From assembly GCA_964488095.1 (NCBI GenBank), contig CAZATP010000013.1:3576-67575 (forward strand): DNA of 64,000 nucleotides, read 5' to 3'. A model generated the notes under the pieces. That model did not search any database and was not told the DNA's origin. It saw only the letters and a list, made by a program, of their open reading frames with translations. The position numbers and the translations under genes are program-made. The first letter of the stretch is position 1. The number at the start of each line of letters is the position of its first letter. Origin of the DNA: an uncultured Chryseobacterium sp. (GTDB lineage: Bacteria; Bacteroidota; Bacteroidia; UBA10329). This document shows, one piece after another, positions 30,391-39,535 of this stretch.

Positions 30391-30403
30391 ATTCACTCAT
30401 CTG

Positions 30404-30477
30404 TGACCCTGTAGGGATTCGAACCCCAAACCTCCTCATCCGTAGTGAGGTGCTCTATCCAGTTGAGCTACAGAGCC
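30404..30477 (-). tRNA. tRNA-Arg (anticodon ACG), 74 nt, CCA not encoded
   Basis: Manual fold on the minus strand: acceptor GGCTCTG/CAGGGTC (two G-U pairs), D-arm GCTC-AACTGGATA-GAGC, anticodon stem CCTCA/TGAGG with loop CTACGGA, T-arm TGGGG-TTCGAAT-CCCTA, discriminator A. Confidence 0.85.
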
Positions 30478-34934: not shown

Positions 34935-35110
34935 GCGATAAGGGGTTTTTGAAGGCTGACAAAGTTGGTGAAAACCCCGCAGCGGGGGAGGCGGCCAAGC
35001 CCCGTTGGGAGGCTTGCGCGGGCCTATTTATCAACAATTGGCGGGGTGGGGGGTGTGGATTGTACAAGCATTATGGCGAACTTTGACCGCTGAATCAAAT
35101 CAAAGCGAAT

Positions 35111-36337
35111 ATGATTACCAAGGTTAGAATCCGTAACTACAAGACGCTAGAGGATACCGAGCTGACGCTTGGAAGAATCAATGTCATTATCGGAGTGAAC
35201 GGAGCGGGGAAATCAAACTTGGCTGAAGCGATTGCCCTTGGGGTTGCAGGTGCCCAAGGTAAACTAGATTCGGAATATCTGACTGCAAGAGGCATTAGAC
35301 TCACTCACCCGAAGTTCATGCGTTCTGGATTTGGCCCCATCAACTCAGATCCTATCCGAATCGATTTGACCAACGACCAGAATACGTTGAAGCCTGTCAT
35401 TAACGTTGAATTGAACAATGACGGAAAACCGTATTCAAAATGGGTAAATCCCATATTGGATAGTGATAGAAAATTTCTTGAAAAGATGTTGGTGTCAATT
35501 TTCAAACCTGGGGAGCCCGATTTGTCTGAACACCCAGAAAATATTCATGAGGGCTTGTTGGATTTAAAGCGTACCGTTGTGGAGAAAAACAAGGATATGT
35601 TTGATGATCCAGAATTCGCTGATTTCATGAGATCAAGCCTTCCAGAATTCGTTAAAAATTTAGTGGAAAGAGGCAGTGAAATTGAGGATTTCGTGATTTA
35701 CAAACCAGAAGAAACGTTTTTGAGGAAATTCGATTCGCAAGGGCAGTTGGAGCCTCTTGGAATGCGAGGTGAAGGATTGCTAAAACTATTGACTGTTTTT
35801 AGCAGTGAGAAGCCAGAGATTTTGGGTGAGTTAAGGAAACATCTTAAGCTGTTTGACTGGTTTGAGGATATTAAACTAAAAGATCAGTTGATAGAAAAGG
35901 AAGTGTACTTCGATATTCAAGATAAATATCTCAATCCTGAATTGGGCTATTTTGACCAACGAAGTTCAAACGAGGGATTCCTCTATCTCGCGTTCTACAT
36001 AAGTCTGTTCCTGAGTGAAACTGCCCCGAAGAATTTTGCAATTGATAATGTTGATAATGCCCTTAACCCGAAACTCTGCACACGCTTAGTGAAGTTGCTG
36101 ACAACCTTGGCTAAGGAATATGGAAAGCAGGCCATTATTACCACTCACAATCCTGCAGTTCTAGATGGGCTTGATTTGAATGACCCAGAGCAAAAGTTGT
36201 TTGTCGTCAGTAGGAAGCGCAACGGTGCCACAAGAATATCAGAAGTGAAAGTGAAGCCTACATCTGATAAGTTGATGAAACTGTCTGAAATGTTCATGTC
36301 AGGAATGTTGGGCGGCCTTCCTAAGAATTTTGCGTGA
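35111..36337 (+). CDS. ABC/SMC/RecF/OLD-type P-loop ATPase (AAA_21/AAA_15-like), putative defence-system ATPase
   Basis: N-terminal IRNYKTL…INVIIGVNGAGKSNLAEAI is the Walker A. C-terminal …FAIDNVDNALNP… is Walker B-like with N in place of the catalytic E, followed by ITTHNP (H-loop). The gene is strongly AT-rich relative to its flanks. Confidence 0.75.
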   Translation: MITKVRIRNYKTLEDTELTLGRINVIIGVNGAGKSNLAEAIALGVAGAQGKLDSEYLTARGIRLTHPKFMRSGFGPINSDPIRIDLTNDQNTLKPVINVELNNDGKPYSKWVNPILDSDRKFLEKMLVSIFKPGEPDLSEHPENIHEGLLDLKRTVVEKNKDMFDDPEFADFMRSSLPEFVKNLVERGSEIEDFVIYKPEETFLRKFDSQGQLEPLGMRGEGLLKLLTVFSSEKPEILGELRKHLKLFDWFEDIKLKDQLIEKEVYFDIQDKYLNPELGYFDQRSSNEGFLYLAFYISLFLSETAPKNFAIDNVDNALNPKLCTRLVKLLTTLAKEYGKQAIITTHNPAVLDGLDLNDPEQKLFVVSRKRNGATRISEVKVKPTSDKLMKLSEMFMSGMLGGLPKNFA

Positions 36338-37011
36338 TGAATGTTGGCATTATCTCGGAAGGTTATACAGACCAGCTTGTTCTGGACAATATAATCATTG
36401 GGTATTTTGGCTCAGATGATTGTGTTGATGTGAAATATTTGCAGCCCCTTCGAGATGAAACTGACCTCTCAGCGCATGATGGCGGTGGTTGGGCGAACCT
36501 GATTGATTACTGTTCGGCTGAGGAGAGAATCAATTCTGCGTTGACTACAAGTGATTATATAGTGATTCATTTGGACACGGACATTCTCTCGAATCTGCAA
36601 ACTGATGTGACTGGGAATGAATCAGTGGAAGAGCTGGTCGAGAAGGCGAAGAATGTTTTGATAGAAAGAATAGCAGGCGACCTGTACAGCCAGAACGCGG
36701 AGAAGATTCTATTCGCTATTTCAGTTCACTCTATTGAGTGCTGGATATTGGTTTTGCTGGAGGACCAGCCGAAGAGGCGTAATCAAACTGTAAATTGTTT
36801 GGATAGAGTGAATAGAAAACTCAGTCCAAGGGGATATTCAATCGATCCGCGAAACAAAAACCATTTCAAGGACGAGTACCATGAACTTTCAGAGGAATTC
36901 TCTAACAAGAGAACACTGAAAAGAGTTAAGGCCAGCAATGATAGTTTGAGCATCTTCTTTGATGCCATGGACGAAAAGTGGTCGTCATTTGACTCTTGCG
37001 TAGATACCTAA
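36334..37011 (+). CDS. small partner protein of the ATPase; TOPRIM-like E…DxD pattern (DUF4276/RloB/AbiLii-like candidate)
   Basis: Start ATGATGAATG overlaps the ATPase stop. N-terminal VGIISEGYTDQ, then IVIHLDTDIL, resemble the TOPRIM Glu plus DxD arrangement. The gene shares the low G+C of the ATPase gene. Confidence 0.55.
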   Translation: MMNVGIISEGYTDQLVLDNIIIGYFGSDDCVDVKYLQPLRDETDLSAHDGGGWANLIDYCSAEERINSALTTSDYIVIHLDTDILSNLQTDVTGNESVEELVEKAKNVLIERIAGDLYSQNAEKILFAISVHSIECWILVLLEDQPKRRNQTVNCLDRVNRKLSPRGYSIDPRNKNHFKDEYHELSEEFSNKRTLKRVKASNDSLSIFFDAMDEKWSSFDSCVDT

Positions 37012-37078
37012 GCAATTCTTCGCCTTCTTCATCTACCATATCATCCGCGCCAGCCGCAAGTTCGCGAAGCACTGAACC

Positions 37079-37723
37079 TCACCCCCCCACGAACACCCCC
37101 CGTTTCACCTCGTCCTCGGCAAAGAGCACATCGGCAGCGAGCTGAATGCGCTGCACGAAGCTCCACATGTGAAGGAAGGCGCGTTTGCGCTGCGCGGTGA
37201 GGCGGGTGCGCACGCGCTTCTTGTATTCGTGCTGCACCTCGGCATCGGTGAGGGCGTTGGCGGTGTCGAGCAGGGCCTGTGTGTGGGCGGGGGTCATGCC
37301 CTTGGCGGAGAGCTCGGGGGCGTGGTCGAGGGCCAGGAGGTGCATGGTGCGCACGGCAACGGCATAGTGGGCCGGGGCATAGCGGAACTTGACGAGGCGC
37401 TCGAAGCCGAACACCCGGAGGTCGTCCTTGGCGGTGAAGGCGAGGCTGGCATAGTAGCGCAGGTCGCGCACGGCAGCCGCGCAGGCGGCCATCTGCTCGC
37501 CCGTGACGGCCGCGCTGATCTGCTGGTCGTCCACGGTGGTCTCGTCCGTGGGCATGGTGAGGGCATCCTCGATGGCCTGCAGCCAGGCATCGCGGAAGGC
37601 GGGGCCGAGGTCGGGGTCGTAGGCCTCGAACTCGGGCAGGAACTCCTCATAGACCTTGCACATGCGCGAGGCGATGGTGAGGGCGCGGGCATCGGTGTGG
37701 CTGTAGGGGCGGGTGTTGCTCAT
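37079..37723 (-). CDS. hypothetical protein, paralogous to the N-terminal domain of the 38540-39535 product
   Basis: 214 aa. Alignable by eye to the downstream paralogue (…DPDLGPAFRDAWLQAIEDAL… vs …DSDFASPDFETDWQAAIDASL…; …AKGMTPAHTQALLDTANALTD… vs …AKGFTPTMLAEINTLTDN…). Confidence 0.55.
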   Translation of the reverse strand: MSNTRPYSHTDARALTIASRMCKVYEEFLPEFEAYDPDLGPAFRDAWLQAIEDALTMPTDETTVDDQQISAAVTGEQMAACAAAVRDLRYYASLAFTAKDDLRVFGFERLVKFRYAPAHYAVAVRTMHLLALDHAPELSAKGMTPAHTQALLDTANALTDAEVQHEYKKRVRTRLTAQRKRAFLHMWSFVQRIQLAADVLFAEDEVKRGVFVGG

Positions 37724-37984
37724 GGCGATGGGGTGTTTGTTGCGCTACGCACGTTGGTCAGCGGGTTGCAGGTGTTCGGCACGGCTCATCCTGCCGCAGA
37801 TGGCAGCATGCATGCCACGGATGGTGCTGTTCGTGCATAGGGCGGATGATTGCAGGGCACGGAAACAATATTACAAGACAAATTTATGAAGCCCCACTGA
37901 TCCGACAATAAACAGCATCCTTTCGTCATAAGAGTGCATGCTTGGTCTGGCAGGTCGCACCGATCCGATGCCGTACATCAGTTG

Positions 37985-38236
37985 TGCAAAGTGTTTTCCT
38001 TGGCCTGCAATGTATCTCCCTTCTTGTGCAATGTATGTTCCCAGAGCTGCAATGTTCATCCTGTTGTTTGCTATGTATGTCCTTTGCTATGCTATGTATC
38101 ATCCCAACTATGCATGGTTTATTCCTTGGCCTGCAATGTAATTCCCATGGCATGCTATGTATGTCCTATTCACTGTAATGTCTGTCCTTTGGTCTGCAAG
38201 ACACTATCCTTTTGATGCAGCGTGATTCCCTGCCTG
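37985..38236. repeat. tandem array of about 11-12 head-to-tail 21-bp repeats, consensus TGCAATGTATnTCCyyTnnnn
   Basis: Units at 37985, 38006, 38027, 38048, 38069, 38090, 38111, 38132, 38153, 38174 and 38195, plus a degenerate unit at 38216. Each begins TGC(A/T)ATGT and has TCC at unit positions ~12-16. The array is AT-rich. All three forward frames stay open because of repeat composition. Confidence 0.85.
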
Positions 38237-38384
38237 TTGTTGCGGTCATCTGCCGCATGGGCCAAAAAAAAACCGGAACAGTAAAGAAGTTGGGTGAAGC
38301 GGGATTTCCAGATTATTGCTTGCGGCAATGAGAACGCTGCGCTAAGTTGCTTCGGTTCCCGAAACAAGTTCGGGACAGGCTGTT

Positions 38385-38428
38385 CCTCCCTCGCAATGAC
38401 GGCCATCGGAGCGTCATTGCGAGGGAGG
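38385..38428. other. perfect 17-bp inverted repeat (extendable to ~20 bp with one G-U), 10-nt loop
   Basis: CCTCCCTCGCAATGACG gccatcggag CGTCATTGCGAGGGAGG, about 110 bp downstream of the stop of the minus-strand gene 38540-39535. No adjacent U-tract. It produces mirror-image spurious ORFs on both strands (LPRND…AVIAREE). Confidence 0.75.
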
Positions 38429-38539: not shown

Positions 38540-39535
38540 TCAGGGCATGGGCGGCATGGGCGGCATCGGTGGTGGTGAGGATGGCGGCAGGGAGGCATTG
38601 ACCACGGTGGGCTGCTTGGTCTGCTCGCGGGTGAAGGGGATCTGAATCAGCGCAAACCCTGCTGCGCTCACCTTCAGGTTGTAATTGCCCGGGGCCACCT
38701 GTGCCAGACCGAAGTTGCCGTCCTGGTCGGTGGTGGTGGTCATGTTCAGCTCCACGTTCTGCACGGTGGCGCCTGCCACAGGCACGCCCATGCTGCTCAC
38801 ATTGCCCACCACGCTATAGACGCTCGGGTTCTCCGTTCTGCGCGGGAAGAGGAAGATGTTGTATAGCAGCGGATTCTCGGCATAGATCACCTCTGATGCT
38901 TCTCTCACCCGCTGGCTGAAGCCCCATGTGGTGTTGTGCGTCACCACCCGTGCGTTGGTGTCGATGGGCGAGAGGGTGTTGAAGCTGTCCTGCGTGGCAT
39001 CGAGGGCGATGAAGTTGTCGGTCAGCGTGTTGATCTCTGCCAGCATGGTCGGGGTGAACCCCTTTGCGGCCAGGGCAGCGGCATGCTGGTTGGCCGCTTT
39101 GAACATCGACTTCATGAAGACGCGCATGCCCTCCTGCGAACCGTAGACCTCCTGATAGTCATCGAACCCGAACTTGTCGAACACCCTGCGGTTCTGTTCC
39201 GAGGCCGATGGCGGGAACGCCTTGTTGGCGAAATACTTCACCTCTTTCACCTTGAGGGTGATGGCCTTCATGGCCGTGTTCACATGTGCGGTATGGATGC
39301 CCAACTGGTCGTCCCGCGTTTCGGCCGTTCCCACCATCAGACTGGCATCGATGGCCGCCTGCCAATCGGTCTCAAAGTCGGGGCTGGCGAAATCGGAGTC
39401 GAACGCGGTGAAATCGCCCTGATAGGTGATGAAAAGATGGCGATGCATGGATGCGAAAGTCAGCATTGCTGCATCAGATAGATTGTACTGGCGTTTTTCC
39501 ATAGCTTTTAGATTGAGTTTAGAATGAAAAGACAC
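38540..39535 (-). CDS. hypothetical protein: N-terminal domain paralogous to 37079-37723, then a CarboxypepD_reg-like beta-sandwich and a Pro-rich tail (PPSSPPPMPPMPPMP)
   Basis: …VVGNVSSMGVPVAGATVQNVELNMTTTTDQDGNFGLAQVAPGNYNLKVSAAGFA… is a carboxypeptidase-regulatory-like fold motif. The C-terminal PMP repeats are encoded by GGCATGGGC repeats. Confidence 0.6.
   Translation of the reverse strand: MSFHSKLNLKAMEKRQYNLSDAAMLTFASMHRHLFITYQGDFTAFDSDFASPDFETDWQAAIDASLMVGTAETRDDQLGIHTAHVNTAMKAITLKVKEVKYFANKAFPPSASEQNRRVFDKFGFDDYQEVYGSQEGMRVFMKSMFKAANQHAAALAAKGFTPTMLAEINTLTDNFIALDATQDSFNTLSPIDTNARVVTHNTTWGFSQRVREASEVIYAENPLLYNIFLFPRRTENPSVYSVVGNVSSMGVPVAGATVQNVELNMTTTTDQDGNFGLAQVAPGNYNLKVSAAGFALIQIPFTREQTKQPTVVNASLPPSSPPPMPPMPPMP

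What the first reader, a model, noticed from the sequence alone, without database searches (positions are those of the whole stretch)
35080..37020. AT-rich two-gene island: OLD/ABC-type ATPase plus TOPRIM-like partner, a candidate uncharacterised anti-phage defence module
Two translationally coupled genes (ATGATGAATG overlap) sit in a ~1.9 kb segment whose G+C is visibly far below the GC-rich flanking core genes, indicating horizontal acquisition. Gene 1 is an SMC/RecF/OLD-type P-loop ATPase with Walker A GVNGAGKS and H-loop TTHNP. Gene 2 is a 225-aa protein whose N-terminal SEGYTDQ and downstream HLDTDIL reproduce the Glu…DxD arrangement of TOPRIM nucleases. An ATPase plus small TOPRIM or nuclease partner is the architecture of OLD, PARIS (AriA/AriB), Gabija and AbiL(i/ii)-type systems. 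This pair has no integrase, restriction-modification or other defence genes nearby and is inserted between a conserved giant secreted protein gene and a pair of native hypothetical genes.
Basis: partly seen in the sequence, partly recalled or inferred. Interest (0 to 1): 0.85.

Follow-up and report, generated by a model that had tools for sequence, protein, structure and literature searches.

The report
Imported ATPase–nuclease defence gene pair
A 2-kb foreign DNA segment in a Bacteroidota genome carries two tightly coupled genes, an ATP-binding sensor-type protein and a small metal-dependent nuclease. They belong to a catalogued but never-tested family of candidate anti-virus systems (PADLOC PDC-M31), so the find is real and sensible but not a new kind of system.

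Summary
Genes A (35111-36337, 408 aa) and B (36337-37011, 224 aa) overlap by 1 nt (TGATG, not "ATGATGAATG"). They lie in a 2,001-bp low-GC island (35053-37053; GC 0.42 against 0.57 for the window; GC3 z about -4).

A is an SMC/OLD-type ABC ATPase. B is an OLD-type TOPRIM nuclease: it has a four-strand core plus a helical domain and the full OLD catalytic set (E8, D12, D80xD82, S132xE134, K174).

Both genes match PADLOC's untested candidate PDC-M31 (A 1e-66; B 1e-12). They do not meet PARIS, AbiL, MADS3-4, Gabija or OLD models. A sits directly upstream of B in 47 of 49 genomic loci and 10 of 10 viral loci.

The pair occurs patchily across seven or more phyla. In two loci it is embedded between DISARM drmA and drmB. 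A sister genome with 92-94% identical flanks has a different low-GC, Pycsar-cyclase-like gene in exactly this slot.

One feature I found described nowhere: the Walker B catalytic Glu is an invariant Asn (AIDNxD..LNP) in every homologue examined. This suggests ATP binding without normal hydrolysis.

Verdict: a new member of a known kind, with defence function inferred and not shown. Interest is moderate.

The parts
35053..37053 (.). Horizontally acquired low-GC island (2,001 bp) holding the two-gene cassette. It is the variable cargo of a genomic slot between the giant secreted-protein gene and the 214-aa gene.
   Evidence: blastn against sister locus L057: homology of 94.6% ends at 35052 and resumes at 92.0% from 37054. 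Island GC is 0.422 against 0.568 for the window. In L057 the slot holds a different 1,447-bp segment with GC 0.419. No flanking direct repeats were found.
35111..36337 (+). Gene A: ABC ATPase of the SMC/Rad50/OLD head type (408 aa), a member of PADLOC family PDC-M31A.
   Evidence: PDC-M31A 1.1e-66, 223.6 bits, full length. Pfam AAA_21, AAA_15, AAA_23 and SMC_N. AF2 pLDDT 79.9. Foldseek hits to 9n69, 8ee4, 9lp9, 6p74 and SMC heads at E 1e-10 to 1e-12.
35192..35215 (+). Walker A / P-loop, GVNGAGKS (residues 28-35).
   Evidence: G28, N30, G31, G33 and K34 are invariant in 43 partner-linked homologues and 58 database homologues. Coordinates.
35963..35980 (+). ABC signature-like motif, SSNEGF (residues 285-290).
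   Evidence: S285, N287, E288, G289 and F290 are invariant in the 43 partner-linked homologues; among the 58 database homologues E288, G289 and F290 are invariant and S285 and N287 at least 90% conserved.
36035..36070 (+). Atypical Walker B / D-loop, FAIDNVDNALNP (residues 309-320). Asn313 replaces the catalytic Glu, and Asn319 replaces the D-loop Asp or the His of 'LHP'.
   Evidence: D312, N313 and N319 are 100% invariant, and the motif also appears in 9 of the 10 viral-contig copies of gene A by pattern match. It aligns to SMC 'LDEVDSPLD' and TsOLD 'EEPEMYLHP'.
36140..36154 (+). H-loop, TTHNP (residues 344-348).
   Evidence: T344, T345, H346 and P348 are invariant or nearly so.
36334..36339 (+). 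A/B junction, GTGATG. The A stop TGA (36335-36337) overlaps the B ATG (36337-36339), which implies translational coupling.
   Evidence: Sequence. The gap between the A stop and the B start is -1 to +2 nt in about 40 of 46 related loci.
36337..37011 (+). Gene B: standalone OLD-type TOPRIM nuclease with a C-terminal helical domain (224 aa). It belongs to a sister clade of PADLOC PDC-M31B.
36355..36375 (+). TOPRIM Glu motif, SEGYTDQ. E8 is the predicted metal-A ligand and D12 corresponds to the metal-B residue E404 of Bp OLD.
   Evidence: E8, G9 and D12 are invariant in 56 homologues. They follow strand 1 in the model. OLD residues from PMC6755086.
36568..36582 (+). DxD motif, HLDTD (D80, D82), at the end of strand 3.
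   Evidence: D80 and D82 are invariant and T81 at least 90% conserved. Strand 3 spans residues 74-80.
36727..36744 (+). HSIECW. S132-x-E134 follows strand 4 and corresponds to T506-x-E508 (metal B) of Bp OLD.
   Evidence: E134 is at least 90% conserved and W136 is invariant. Strand 4 spans residues 124-129 and is followed by a helix at 134-141. OLD residues.
36856..36858 (+). K174 in the helical domain, the candidate equivalent of the catalytic K562 of Bp OLD.
   Evidence: K174 is invariant in 56 homologues. It lies in helix 171-189. The role of K562 is described. The spatial equivalence is inferred, because model coordinates could not be inspected.

Best explanation
Window 35053-37053 is a horizontally acquired two-gene cassette of the ABC-ATPase + OLD-type-TOPRIM class, PADLOC candidate family PDC-M31. 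It most likely acts as an anti-phage or anti-mobile-element defence module.

Gene A and gene B are co-translated. A probably forms an ATP-dependent head-to-tail dimer or a higher oligomer, and serves as the sensor and regulator. B is a two-metal phosphodiesterase whose active site is built from E8, D12, D80/D82, S132/E134 and K174.

By analogy with PARIS (AriA/AriB) and the OLD nucleases, A would keep B inactive until an infection cue changes A's nucleotide or oligomeric state. B would then cut nucleic acid (phage or host DNA, or a tRNA), stopping the infection, possibly at the cost of the cell.

The catalytic Glu of Walker B is an invariant Asn in this family. I therefore infer that ATP binding, rather than turnover, sets the switch.

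Shown here: domain identities, conservation of catalytic residues, conserved gene order and coupling, foreign origin, hotspot behaviour, and embedding in DISARM.

Inferred only: defence activity, an A-B complex, the trigger, the substrate, and lack of ATP hydrolysis.
For: - Family assignment. A matches PDC-M31A at 1.1e-66 over its full length. B matches PDC-M31B at 9.5e-13 and 4e-12, and all 56 B homologues hit PDC-M31B.
- A is an ABC ATPase. Walker A, the signature motif and the H-loop are invariant.
- The invariant residues E8, D12, D80xD82, SxE134 and K174 follow the order and spacing of the Bp OLD catalytic set E400, E404, D455xD457, T506xE508 and K562.
- A lies directly upstream of B in 47 of the 49 genomic loci that have room upstream of B and in 10 of 10 viral contigs with room. 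The gap is -1 to +2 nt in about 40 of 46 loci.
- Foreign origin. GC3 z is about -4. There is a clean cassette replacement relative to L057, whose slot holds a low-GC gene matching Pycsar cyclase models at 2.9e-13.
- Distribution is patchy, covering Cyanobacteriota, Bacteroidota, Armatimonadota, Desulfobacterota, Acidobacteriota and Alpha- and Gammaproteobacteria, with unrelated neighbours in each.
- In L007 and L052 the pair sits between DrmA (1e-302) and DrmB (2.4e-80). This independently reproduces the guilt-by-embedding logic that defined the PDC candidates.
- Twelve IMG/VR contigs carry the pair.
Against: - No member of PDC-M31 has been tested. The PDCs are explicitly '145 untested' candidates, and the term 'PDC-M31' appears in no paper of the searchable library.
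- HEC-01, the tested candidate with the same architecture, protected against none of the phages tried.
- Most instances, including this one, sit among housekeeping genes rather than in defence islands.
- An Asn in place of the Walker B Glu could mean the ATPase is catalytically dead, which departs from AriA, where E393 is needed for turnover.
- Several lineages carry decayed copies (L045, L052, L028, L041), so selection on the pair is not universal.
Confidence: 0.65

Rival explanations
1. The pair is a selfish addiction or toxin-antitoxin-like module. B is a nuclease toxin and A its ATP-dependent neutraliser. The pair persists because losing it kills the cell or because it stabilises mobile DNA, without giving any real protection against phages.
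For: The pair is small, tightly coupled and highly mobile, and usually stands alone among housekeeping genes. In Microcoleus it lies next to a PIN-type TA pair. The Pfam name of AAA_21 refers to a type IV TA toxin. HEC-01 showed no phage protection.
Against: Gene order (the large ATPase first) and gene sizes are unlike classical TA pairs. The pair is embedded inside DISARM operons and swaps in the same slot with a Pycsar-like gene, both of which point to immunity cargo. The related architectures PARIS, AbiL, Gabija and OLD are proven defences that also look like toxin-plus-regulator pairs, so the two readings are not exclusive.
Confidence: 0.12
2. The pair is an accessory sub-module that works only together with a methylation or restriction system, as MAD3-MAD4 do within MADS or RloA/RloB beside type I R-M. 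The solitary copy in this window would then be inactive or an orphan.
For: PDC-M31 was defined from copies embedded in BREX, DISARM or type I R-M loci. Two loci here are embedded in DISARM. A has partial similarity to mad3 (PADLOC 9.3e-20). DUF4276 (Mad4) and RloB are components of such systems.
Against: In at least 18 of 20 diverse loci examined, and in this window, no R-M or DISARM genes are nearby. Both genes are nevertheless intact and their catalytic residues are conserved. The NCBIfam MAD3 score is 50.7 against a cut-off of 420, and B hits no mad4 model.
Confidence: 0.12
3. The pair is a housekeeping DNA repair or recombination pair, analogous to RecF (ABC ATPase) with RecR (Toprim) or to SbcCD.
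For: A's N-terminus matches RecF, Rad50 and SMC models. RecR also contains a Toprim domain (established knowledge; also listed).
Against: All RecF, Rad50 and SMC scores are far below their cut-offs and cover only the P-loop region. The pair is compositionally foreign. It is absent from a sister genome whose giant flanking protein is 99% identical and whose flanking DNA is 92-95% identical, where another gene occupies the slot. It is distributed patchily across phyla and occurs on viral contigs. B lacks the zinc-finger and HhH parts of RecR; it has no Pfam hit other than RloB.
Confidence: 0.03

Closest known systems
PADLOC phage defence candidate PDC-M31 (Payne et al., bioRxiv 10.1101/2024.01.29.577857; cassette CAS_00126, FAM_00005>>FAM_00304)
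   Same: It is a two-gene cassette with the same order, ATPase then small partner. A matches PDC-M31A over its full length at 1.1e-66. B matches two PDC-M31B models at about 1e-12 with 86% model coverage. As in the defining set, some copies are embedded in DISARM.
   Different: B and all 56 of its relatives reach only 1e-12 to 1e-17 against the PDC-M31B models. They therefore form a sister clade to the RefSeq clusters from which the models were built. PDC-M31 itself is untested and has no published mechanism.
PARIS (AriA ABC ATPase + AriB DUF4435 TOPRIM; OLD class 4)
   Same: The ATPase and the TOPRIM nuclease are split over two adjacent genes. The ATPase is of the AAA_15/21 type (AriA model 5.4e-21). 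B's best structural match, PH0156/2p62, is also the HHpred match of a PARIS AriB. The likely logic is that the ATPase senses and the nuclease is then released or activated.
   Different: B hits no AriB or DUF4435 model. At 224 aa, B is smaller than AriB (about 35 kDa). AriA has a Walker B Glu (E393) and hydrolyses ATP, whereas this family has an invariant Asn there. The trigger and substrate are unknown here.
AbiL (AbiLi AAA_21 ATPase + AbiLii RloB) and RloA/RloB
   Same: It is an ATPase plus an RloB-type Toprim partner. A hits AbiLi at 7.6e-20. B hits Pfam RloB at 5e-5, as do 45 of 56 family members. Burman et al. list AbiL among the ABC-ATPase + TOPRIM systems.
   Different: The RloB score of 23.9 bits is below the gathering score of 31.5. 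Only 2 of 56 B homologues touch the AbiLii model, at 5e-4. The AbiLi match covers only part of that profile.
MADS MAD3-MAD4 (AAA ATPase + DUF4276 Toprim)
   Same: It is an ATPase plus a DUF4276-like Toprim partner. A hits mad3 at 9.3e-20. DUF4276 is hit weakly by 36 of 56 B homologues.
   Different: The NCBIfam MAD3 score is 50.7 bits against a cut-off of 420. B hits no mad4 model. No other MADS genes or methylase lie nearby.
HEC-01 (ABC ATPase + TOPRIM, Hma-embedded candidate)
   Same: The architecture is the same. A hits HEC-01A at 7e-23, and B hits HEC-01B weakly (1.2e-3; 12 of 56 relatives reach 1.6e-8). The metal-binding site is shared with Bp OLD.
   Different: It is a separate family by score. 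HEC-01 showed no protection in the one assay reported.
OLD-family nucleases, class 1 and 2 (P2 Old, TsOLD, GajA/Bp OLD)
   Same: The ABC ATPase head is the same: TsOLD 6p74 is the best PDB sequence hit for A at E 1e-4 and a Foldseek hit at 1.3e-10. The Toprim plus helical-domain nuclease has the same set of catalytic residues.
   Different: In OLD the two domains are fused in one polypeptide, whereas here they are separate genes. Only 4 of 56 B homologues touch the OLD-like_TOPRIM Pfam model, at E >= 0.023. There is no GajB-like helicase partner. The Walker B Glu is replaced by Asn.

Membership tests
PADLOC PDC-M31 | Protein A matches a PDC-M31A HMM | tested here: met
   1.1e-66, 223.6 bits, residues 1-405 against profile positions 1-394 of 395.
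PADLOC PDC-M31 | Protein B matches a PDC-M31B HMM | tested here: met
   9.5e-13 and 4e-12, residues 2-188 against profile positions 4-204 of 233. All 56 relatives match, but the best is only 1.9e-17, so this is a divergent sister clade.
PADLOC PDC-M31 | The two genes are adjacent, on the same strand, in the order A then B | tested here: met
   1-nt overlap in the window. A lies directly upstream of B in 47 of 49 genomic loci and 10 of 10 viral loci.
PADLOC PDC-M31 | Some instances are embedded in BREX, DISARM or type I R-M loci (the basis of the candidate) | tested here: met
   L007 and L052 have DrmA - A - B - DrmB. The window copy itself is not embedded.
ABC ATPase (SMC/Rad50/OLD head) | Walker A, signature motif, Walker B Asp, H-loop, and the ABC head fold | tested here: met
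   Motifs are invariant. Foldseek probability is 1.00 to SMC, Rad50, PtuA and OLD heads.
ABC ATPase (SMC/Rad50/OLD head) | A catalytic Glu immediately after the Walker B Asp | tested here: not met
   Asn313 is invariant in 43 + 58 homologues, and the same motif is present in 9 of the 10 viral copies of gene A. It aligns to the E of SMC 'LDEVD' and to the corresponding E of TsOLD 'EEPE'.
TOPRIM domain (OLD-type) | A four-stranded parallel sheet with a conserved Glu after strand 1 and DxD after strand 3 | tested here: met
   AF2 strands at residues 2-6, 31-34, 74-80 and 124-129. E8 and D80xD82 are invariant.
TOPRIM domain (OLD-type) | The extra OLD catalytic residues: an acid at Glu+4, (T/S)xE after strand 4, and a Lys in the helical domain | tested here: met
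   D12, S132xE134 and K174 are conserved, matching E404, T506xE508 and K562.
TOPRIM domain (OLD-type) | Significant sequence or structure match to a curated TOPRIM model or a solved TOPRIM structure | tested here: inconclusive
PARIS | AriB (DUF4435) partner | tested here: not met
   B and its 56 relatives hit no AriB or DUF4435 model.
AbiL | AbiLii / RloB partner above threshold | tested here: not met
   RloB scores 23.9 bits, below the gathering score of 31.5. AbiLii is touched by only 2 of 56 relatives, at 5e-4.
MADS (MAD3-MAD4) | MAD3 equivalog score, and a MAD4 partner within a multi-gene MADS locus | tested here: not met
   NF047739 scores 50.7 bits against a cut-off of 420. There is no mad4 hit and no MADS neighbours.
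Gabija / OLD class 1-3 | ATPase and Toprim fused in one protein, plus a GajB helicase or a retron RT | tested here: not met
   The domains are on separate genes. There is no helicase or RT next to the pair and no retron ncRNA or other Rfam hit.
Anti-phage defence system (functional class) | Experimental protection against phage or another MGE | not testable with these tools
   No PDC-M31 test has been reported.

The most novel reading that the evidence does not exclude
PDC-M31 may be a naturally hydrolysis-dead ABC-ATPase switch. Every member carries Asn in place of the Walker B catalytic Glu, and Asn in place of the D-loop Asp or His. The ATPase would then behave like a permanent 'EQ-trap' mutant: ATP-glued dimers would hold the TOPRIM nuclease, and the system would fire when cellular ATP or nucleotide levels collapse, or when a phage protein pries the dimer apart. 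This would make it a nucleotide-state or 'guard' sensor that is mechanistically distinct from PARIS, Gabija and OLD, all of which turn ATP over.
Probability: 0.2. Interest if true: 0.7.

Novelty: new member of a known kind. Interest (0 to 1): 0.42.

Why it matters
If the pair is active, it would be the first functional evidence for PDC-M31. This is a widespread family: B has about 440 clusters at 50% identity with E <= 1e-30, and A has more than 2,000 clusters at 90% identity with E <= 0.001. The family is common in cyanobacteria and Bacteroidota, phyla where very few defence systems have been tested.

The invariant Asn at the catalytic Walker B position offers a natural experiment on whether ATP binding alone can gate a TOPRIM effector. 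That would sharpen models built on PARIS and OLD.

The precisely delimited slot, which carries this pair in one genome and a Pycsar-like cyclase gene in a sister genome, is a ready-made example of a defence hotspot in uncultured Flavobacteriales-like bacteria.

The architecture is well known, the family is already catalogued, and no phenotype has been shown, so the advance would be incremental.

Tried and rejected
- Foldseek of the B model against PDB gave no hit at E <= 1e-3.
- An HMM profile of the B family against all PDB sequences gave only a spurious designed protein at E 0.46.
- The AFDB50 fold library was unavailable, so annotated AlphaFold relatives could not be used.
- NCBIfam gave no hit above cut-off for A and none at all for B.
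- A search for flanking direct or inverted repeats, an att site, an integrase or a tRNA at the island edges found only short chance-level repeats. The one bracketing inverted repeat (11 nt; 35048-58 and 37077-87) lies in the conserved flanks. The only tRNA, Arg-ACG at 30403-30477, is 4.6 kb away.
- The sigma-70 promoter and intrinsic terminator scan found nothing above shuffled expectation. Bacteroidota promoters are not covered by that scan.
- An Rfam scan of the island found no RNA family, so a retron ncRNA is excluded.
- Exact-protein look-ups of the neighbouring gene found only short contigs from the same population, and these also carry the island, so they gave no empty site.
- An apparent DrmA-A fusion ORF in L007 turned out to be an artefact of masked N's.
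- Pfam did not confirm the cyclase domain of the alternative cargo in L057; only the PADLOC PycC models match it.
- The PADLOC hits elsewhere in the window (BrxH, DpdF, Cas3, mad2, PbeA) were rejected as generic helicase or methyltransferase cross-matches to housekeeping genes.
- The literature search for a MADS paper did not find it.
Full report
**1. The observation**

Gene A is at 35111-36337 (+, 408 aa). Gene B is at 36337-37011 (+, 224 aa from the ATG; a GTG at 36334 would add one residue).

G+C falls to 0.38-0.45 across the pair, against 0.55-0.69 on both sides. Third-position GC is 0.45 (A) and 0.48 (B), against 0.747 +/- 0.066 for 37 other genes of the window, giving z = -4.5 and -4.1. 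All the quoted motifs are present.

**2. What the proteins are**

*Gene A.* It matches Pfam AAA_21 (1.8e-16), AAA_15, AAA_23 and SMC_N. Its AlphaFold model (pLDDT 79.9) is placed by Foldseek with probability 1.00 among ABC heads of defence ATPases and SMC proteins. These include the retron-IA ATPase 9n69, Septu PtuA 8ee4/8eea, retron Eco8 9lp9, TsOLD 6p74 and cohesin/SMC/Rad50 heads, at E 1e-10 to 1e-12.

*Gene B.* It has only a sub-threshold Pfam hit, to RloB (5e-5, 23.9 bits against a cut-off of 31.5). Across 56 homologues, however, the weak hits are consistent and all fall in TOPRIM-type families: RloB in 45 of 56, DUF4276 in 36 of 56, OLD-like_TOPRIM in 4 and DUF3226 in 1. RloB and DUF4276 are described as Toprim nucleases in PMC12065111.

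The residues that are invariant or nearly so in the family are E8, G9, D12, D80, D82, E134 (within S132-I-E134), W136 and K174. They reproduce, in order and with similar spacing, the experimentally defined Bp OLD catalytic set E400, E404, D455xD457, T506xE508 and K562.

**3. Family assignment**

Against PADLOC-DB, A matches PDC-M31A over its full length (1.1e-66). B matches two PDC-M31B models (9.5e-13; 4e-12 with 86% model coverage). The next-best A hits are PDC-M25A, PDC-M07A, HEC-01A, AriA, AbiLi and mad3, at 1e-25 to 1e-20. B hits none of AriB, mad4 or GajA, and reaches HEC-01B only at 1e-3.

All 56 B relatives hit PDC-M31B, but none does better than 1.9e-17. They therefore form a sister clade of the RefSeq clusters used to build the models.

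Payne et al. define the PDCs as 145 untested candidates derived by "guilt-by-embedding" in BREX, DISARM and type I R-M loci. PDC-M31 is their cassette CAS_00126. The term PDC-M31 appears in no paper of the library. HEC-01, the tested candidate with the same ATPase + TOPRIM architecture, protected against none of the phages tried.

**4. Conservation of the pair**

In 53 loci from GTDB species representatives, A lies immediately upstream of B in 47 of the 49 loci with room upstream of B. The same holds in 10 of 10 IMG/VR contigs with room. The spacing from the A stop to the B start is -1 to +2 nt in about 40 of 46 cases (TGATG or TAATATG).

The hosts span Cyanobacteriota (a vertically inherited copy in Microcoleus), Bacteroidota, Armatimonadota, Desulfobacterota, Acidobacteriota, and Alpha- and Gammaproteobacteria. 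Outside Microcoleus, the neighbours are different in almost every locus.

The B family comprises about 440 clusters at 50% identity with E <= 1e-30, and 1,371 with E <= 1e-3, out of 1.84 billion representatives. The A family has more than 2,000 clusters at 90% identity with E <= 0.001.

**5. Context**

The window belongs to a Bacteroidota genome with type IX secretion. It carries Por_Secre_tail, Peptidase_C25 and DUF4294, and the closest relatives of the flanking giant protein are labelled Flavobacteriales or Bacteroidia. The rest of the window is housekeeping, and the PADLOC hits there are generic helicase or methyltransferase cross-matches.

The key comparison is with L057, a 1.67-Mb JGI contig whose giant protein is 99% identical to the window's. 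Nucleotide homology of 94.6% ends at window 35052 and resumes at 92.0% from 37054. The 2,001 bp in between (GC 0.422) are replaced in L057 by 1,447 bp (GC 0.419). That segment encodes one 365-aa protein, which matches six Pycsar-cyclase (PycC) models at up to 2.9e-13 and has an FTGDG motif, although Pfam gives no hit.

The same slot thus carries different foreign, defence-like cargo in near-identical backgrounds, which is how defence hotspots behave. In relatives at 84% identity, the giant gene abuts the DUF4190 gene directly, so the whole 34.9-39.7 kb stretch is variable.

Among 20 taxonomically diverse loci, two (L007 and L052) have the pair between DrmA (1e-302) and DrmB (2.4e-80), that is, embedded in DISARM. 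Most of the others have housekeeping neighbours. No repeats, integrase, tRNA, Rfam element or recognisable promoter or terminator mark the island edges.

**6. An unexpected feature**

In every A homologue examined, the Walker B region reads (F)A(I/V)D-N-(I/V)-D-x-x-L-N-P. That covers 43 partner-linked copies and 58 database proteins; a pattern search also found the motif in 9 of the 10 viral copies of gene A. D312, N313 and N319 are 100% invariant in both protein sets.

HMMER alignments put N313 on the catalytic Glu of SMC ("LDEVDSPLD") and of TsOLD ("EEPEMYLHP"). They put N319 on the D-loop Asp of SMC and on the His of TsOLD's "LHP". Walker A, the signature-like SxNEGF motif and the H-loop are intact.

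In AriA, the corresponding E393 is needed for ATP turnover. ATP binding (K39) is needed for trigger recognition and for release of AriB. I infer that this family binds ATP but hydrolyses it slowly or not at all. This has not been shown.

**7. Mechanism proposed**

A horizontally acquired operon produces A and B in coupled fashion. A is an ATP-dependent dimer or oligomer that acts as sensor and regulator. B is a two-metal TOPRIM phosphodiesterase. A restrains B until an infection-linked cue alters A, and B then cleaves DNA or RNA/tRNA, causing either direct restriction or abortive infection.

Shown here: the domain identities, conservation of the catalytic residues, conserved coupling, foreign origin, hotspot behaviour and DISARM embedding. 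Inferred only: the defence phenotype, the A-B complex, the trigger, the substrate and the absence of hydrolysis. Confidence that the pair is a defence or MGE-conflict module of this type is about 0.65. Confidence in the specific sequester-and-release model with an ATP-binding switch is about 0.3-0.4.

**8. Rivals**

- An addiction or TA-like selfish module (0.12). This is not exclusive with abortive-infection defence.
- An accessory sub-module that needs an R-M, DISARM or MADS partner (0.12).
- A housekeeping RecF/RecR-like repair pair (0.03). This is largely refuted by the presence/absence polymorphism between near-identical genomes, the foreign composition and the carriage on viral contigs.

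**9. Novelty and verdict**

The architecture is well known from OLD, Gabija, PARIS, AbiL, MADS3-4 and HEC-01/04. The specific family is already catalogued as PDC-M31. I therefore file this as a new member of a known kind. It fails the membership tests for PARIS, AbiL, MADS, Gabija and OLD.

The points of interest are that the family is untested, that its Walker B site is invariantly non-canonical, and that this locus provides a cleanly delimited hotspot with a cargo swap. Interest is 0.42.

Noticed in passing
L057:6436-7882 (gene at L057:6621-7718, minus strand), equivalent to window slot 35053-37053: A sister genome (flanks 92-95% identical) has, in exactly this slot, a different low-GC (0.42) segment. 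It encodes a 365-aa protein that matches Pycsar cyclase (PycC) models (2.9e-13) and has an FTGDG motif, but has no Pfam hit and no adjacent effector gene. It may be a single-gene cyclase-type defence candidate.
   Followed up: partly
L058:5889-13103 (relative whose giant protein is 84% identical); corresponds to the window side carrying tRNA-Arg at 30403-30477: Beyond the 3' end of the giant gene, this relative carries a Type III restriction enzyme (REase_III 8.5e-197), an N6_N4 methyltransferase, a DUF6946 protein and small unknown genes, one with a weak PDC-M32A hit. The window has only tRNA-Arg(ACG) and the histidine ammonia-lyase gene there, so the tRNA side looks like a second integration hotspot.
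   Followed up: partly
window 37079-37723 (-) and 38540-39535 (-): The two 'native hypothetical' neighbours are paralogues of each other (29% identity, E 5e-18). The longer one adds a CarboxypepD_reg domain and a Pro-rich tail. Both are absent from 84%-identity relatives, where the giant gene abuts the DUF4190 gene, so they are accessory genes too.
   Followed up: partly
window 37996-38162: A 63-nt tandem repeat (2.7 copies, 68% match) lies in a low-GC (about 0.46) intergenic stretch at 37800-38400 between the two paralogous genes. It generates several overlapping Cys-rich phantom ORFs. Its function is unknown.
   Followed up: no
L010:10727-11439 and the equivalent positions in about 15 Microcoleus loci: A 99-aa gene plus a PIN_3-domain gene (139 aa) lies immediately downstream of the A-B pair in many Microcoleus genomes. 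This looks like a VapBC-type toxin-antitoxin pair. The otherwise syntenic neighbourhood is housekeeping (oxoprolinase, M28 peptidase, EamA).
   Followed up: partly
L045:2005-2694; L052:5853-6514; L028 and L041 (B ORFs of 124 and 176 aa): Some lineages carry decayed copies. In L045, A is reduced to its first 43 residues, abutting B. In L052, B is interrupted. In two Microcoleus strains, B is shortened. The cassette is therefore not under universal purifying selection.
   Followed up: no
Proteins P0029, P0047 and P0065 (homologues of gene B): Several NCBI records name B homologues 'phage tail protein'. Nothing in the sequence, fold or context supports this, so it looks like a propagated misannotation.
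   Followed up: no
L062-L073 (IMG/VR contigs): Twelve predicted viral or prophage contigs carry the A-B pair (B identity 24-36%). It is often within a few kb of a contig end, which suggests either moron-like cargo at prophage ends or imprecise prophage boundaries.
   Followed up: partly
L035:6442-8549 and L039:6465-8681: Four small genes (TPM_phosphatase-like, DUF948, YtxH, DUF427) lie upstream of the pair in two unrelated genomes (an uncultured bacterium and Snowella). This is the only neighbourhood shared outside the Microcoleus and DISARM loci.
   Followed up: no
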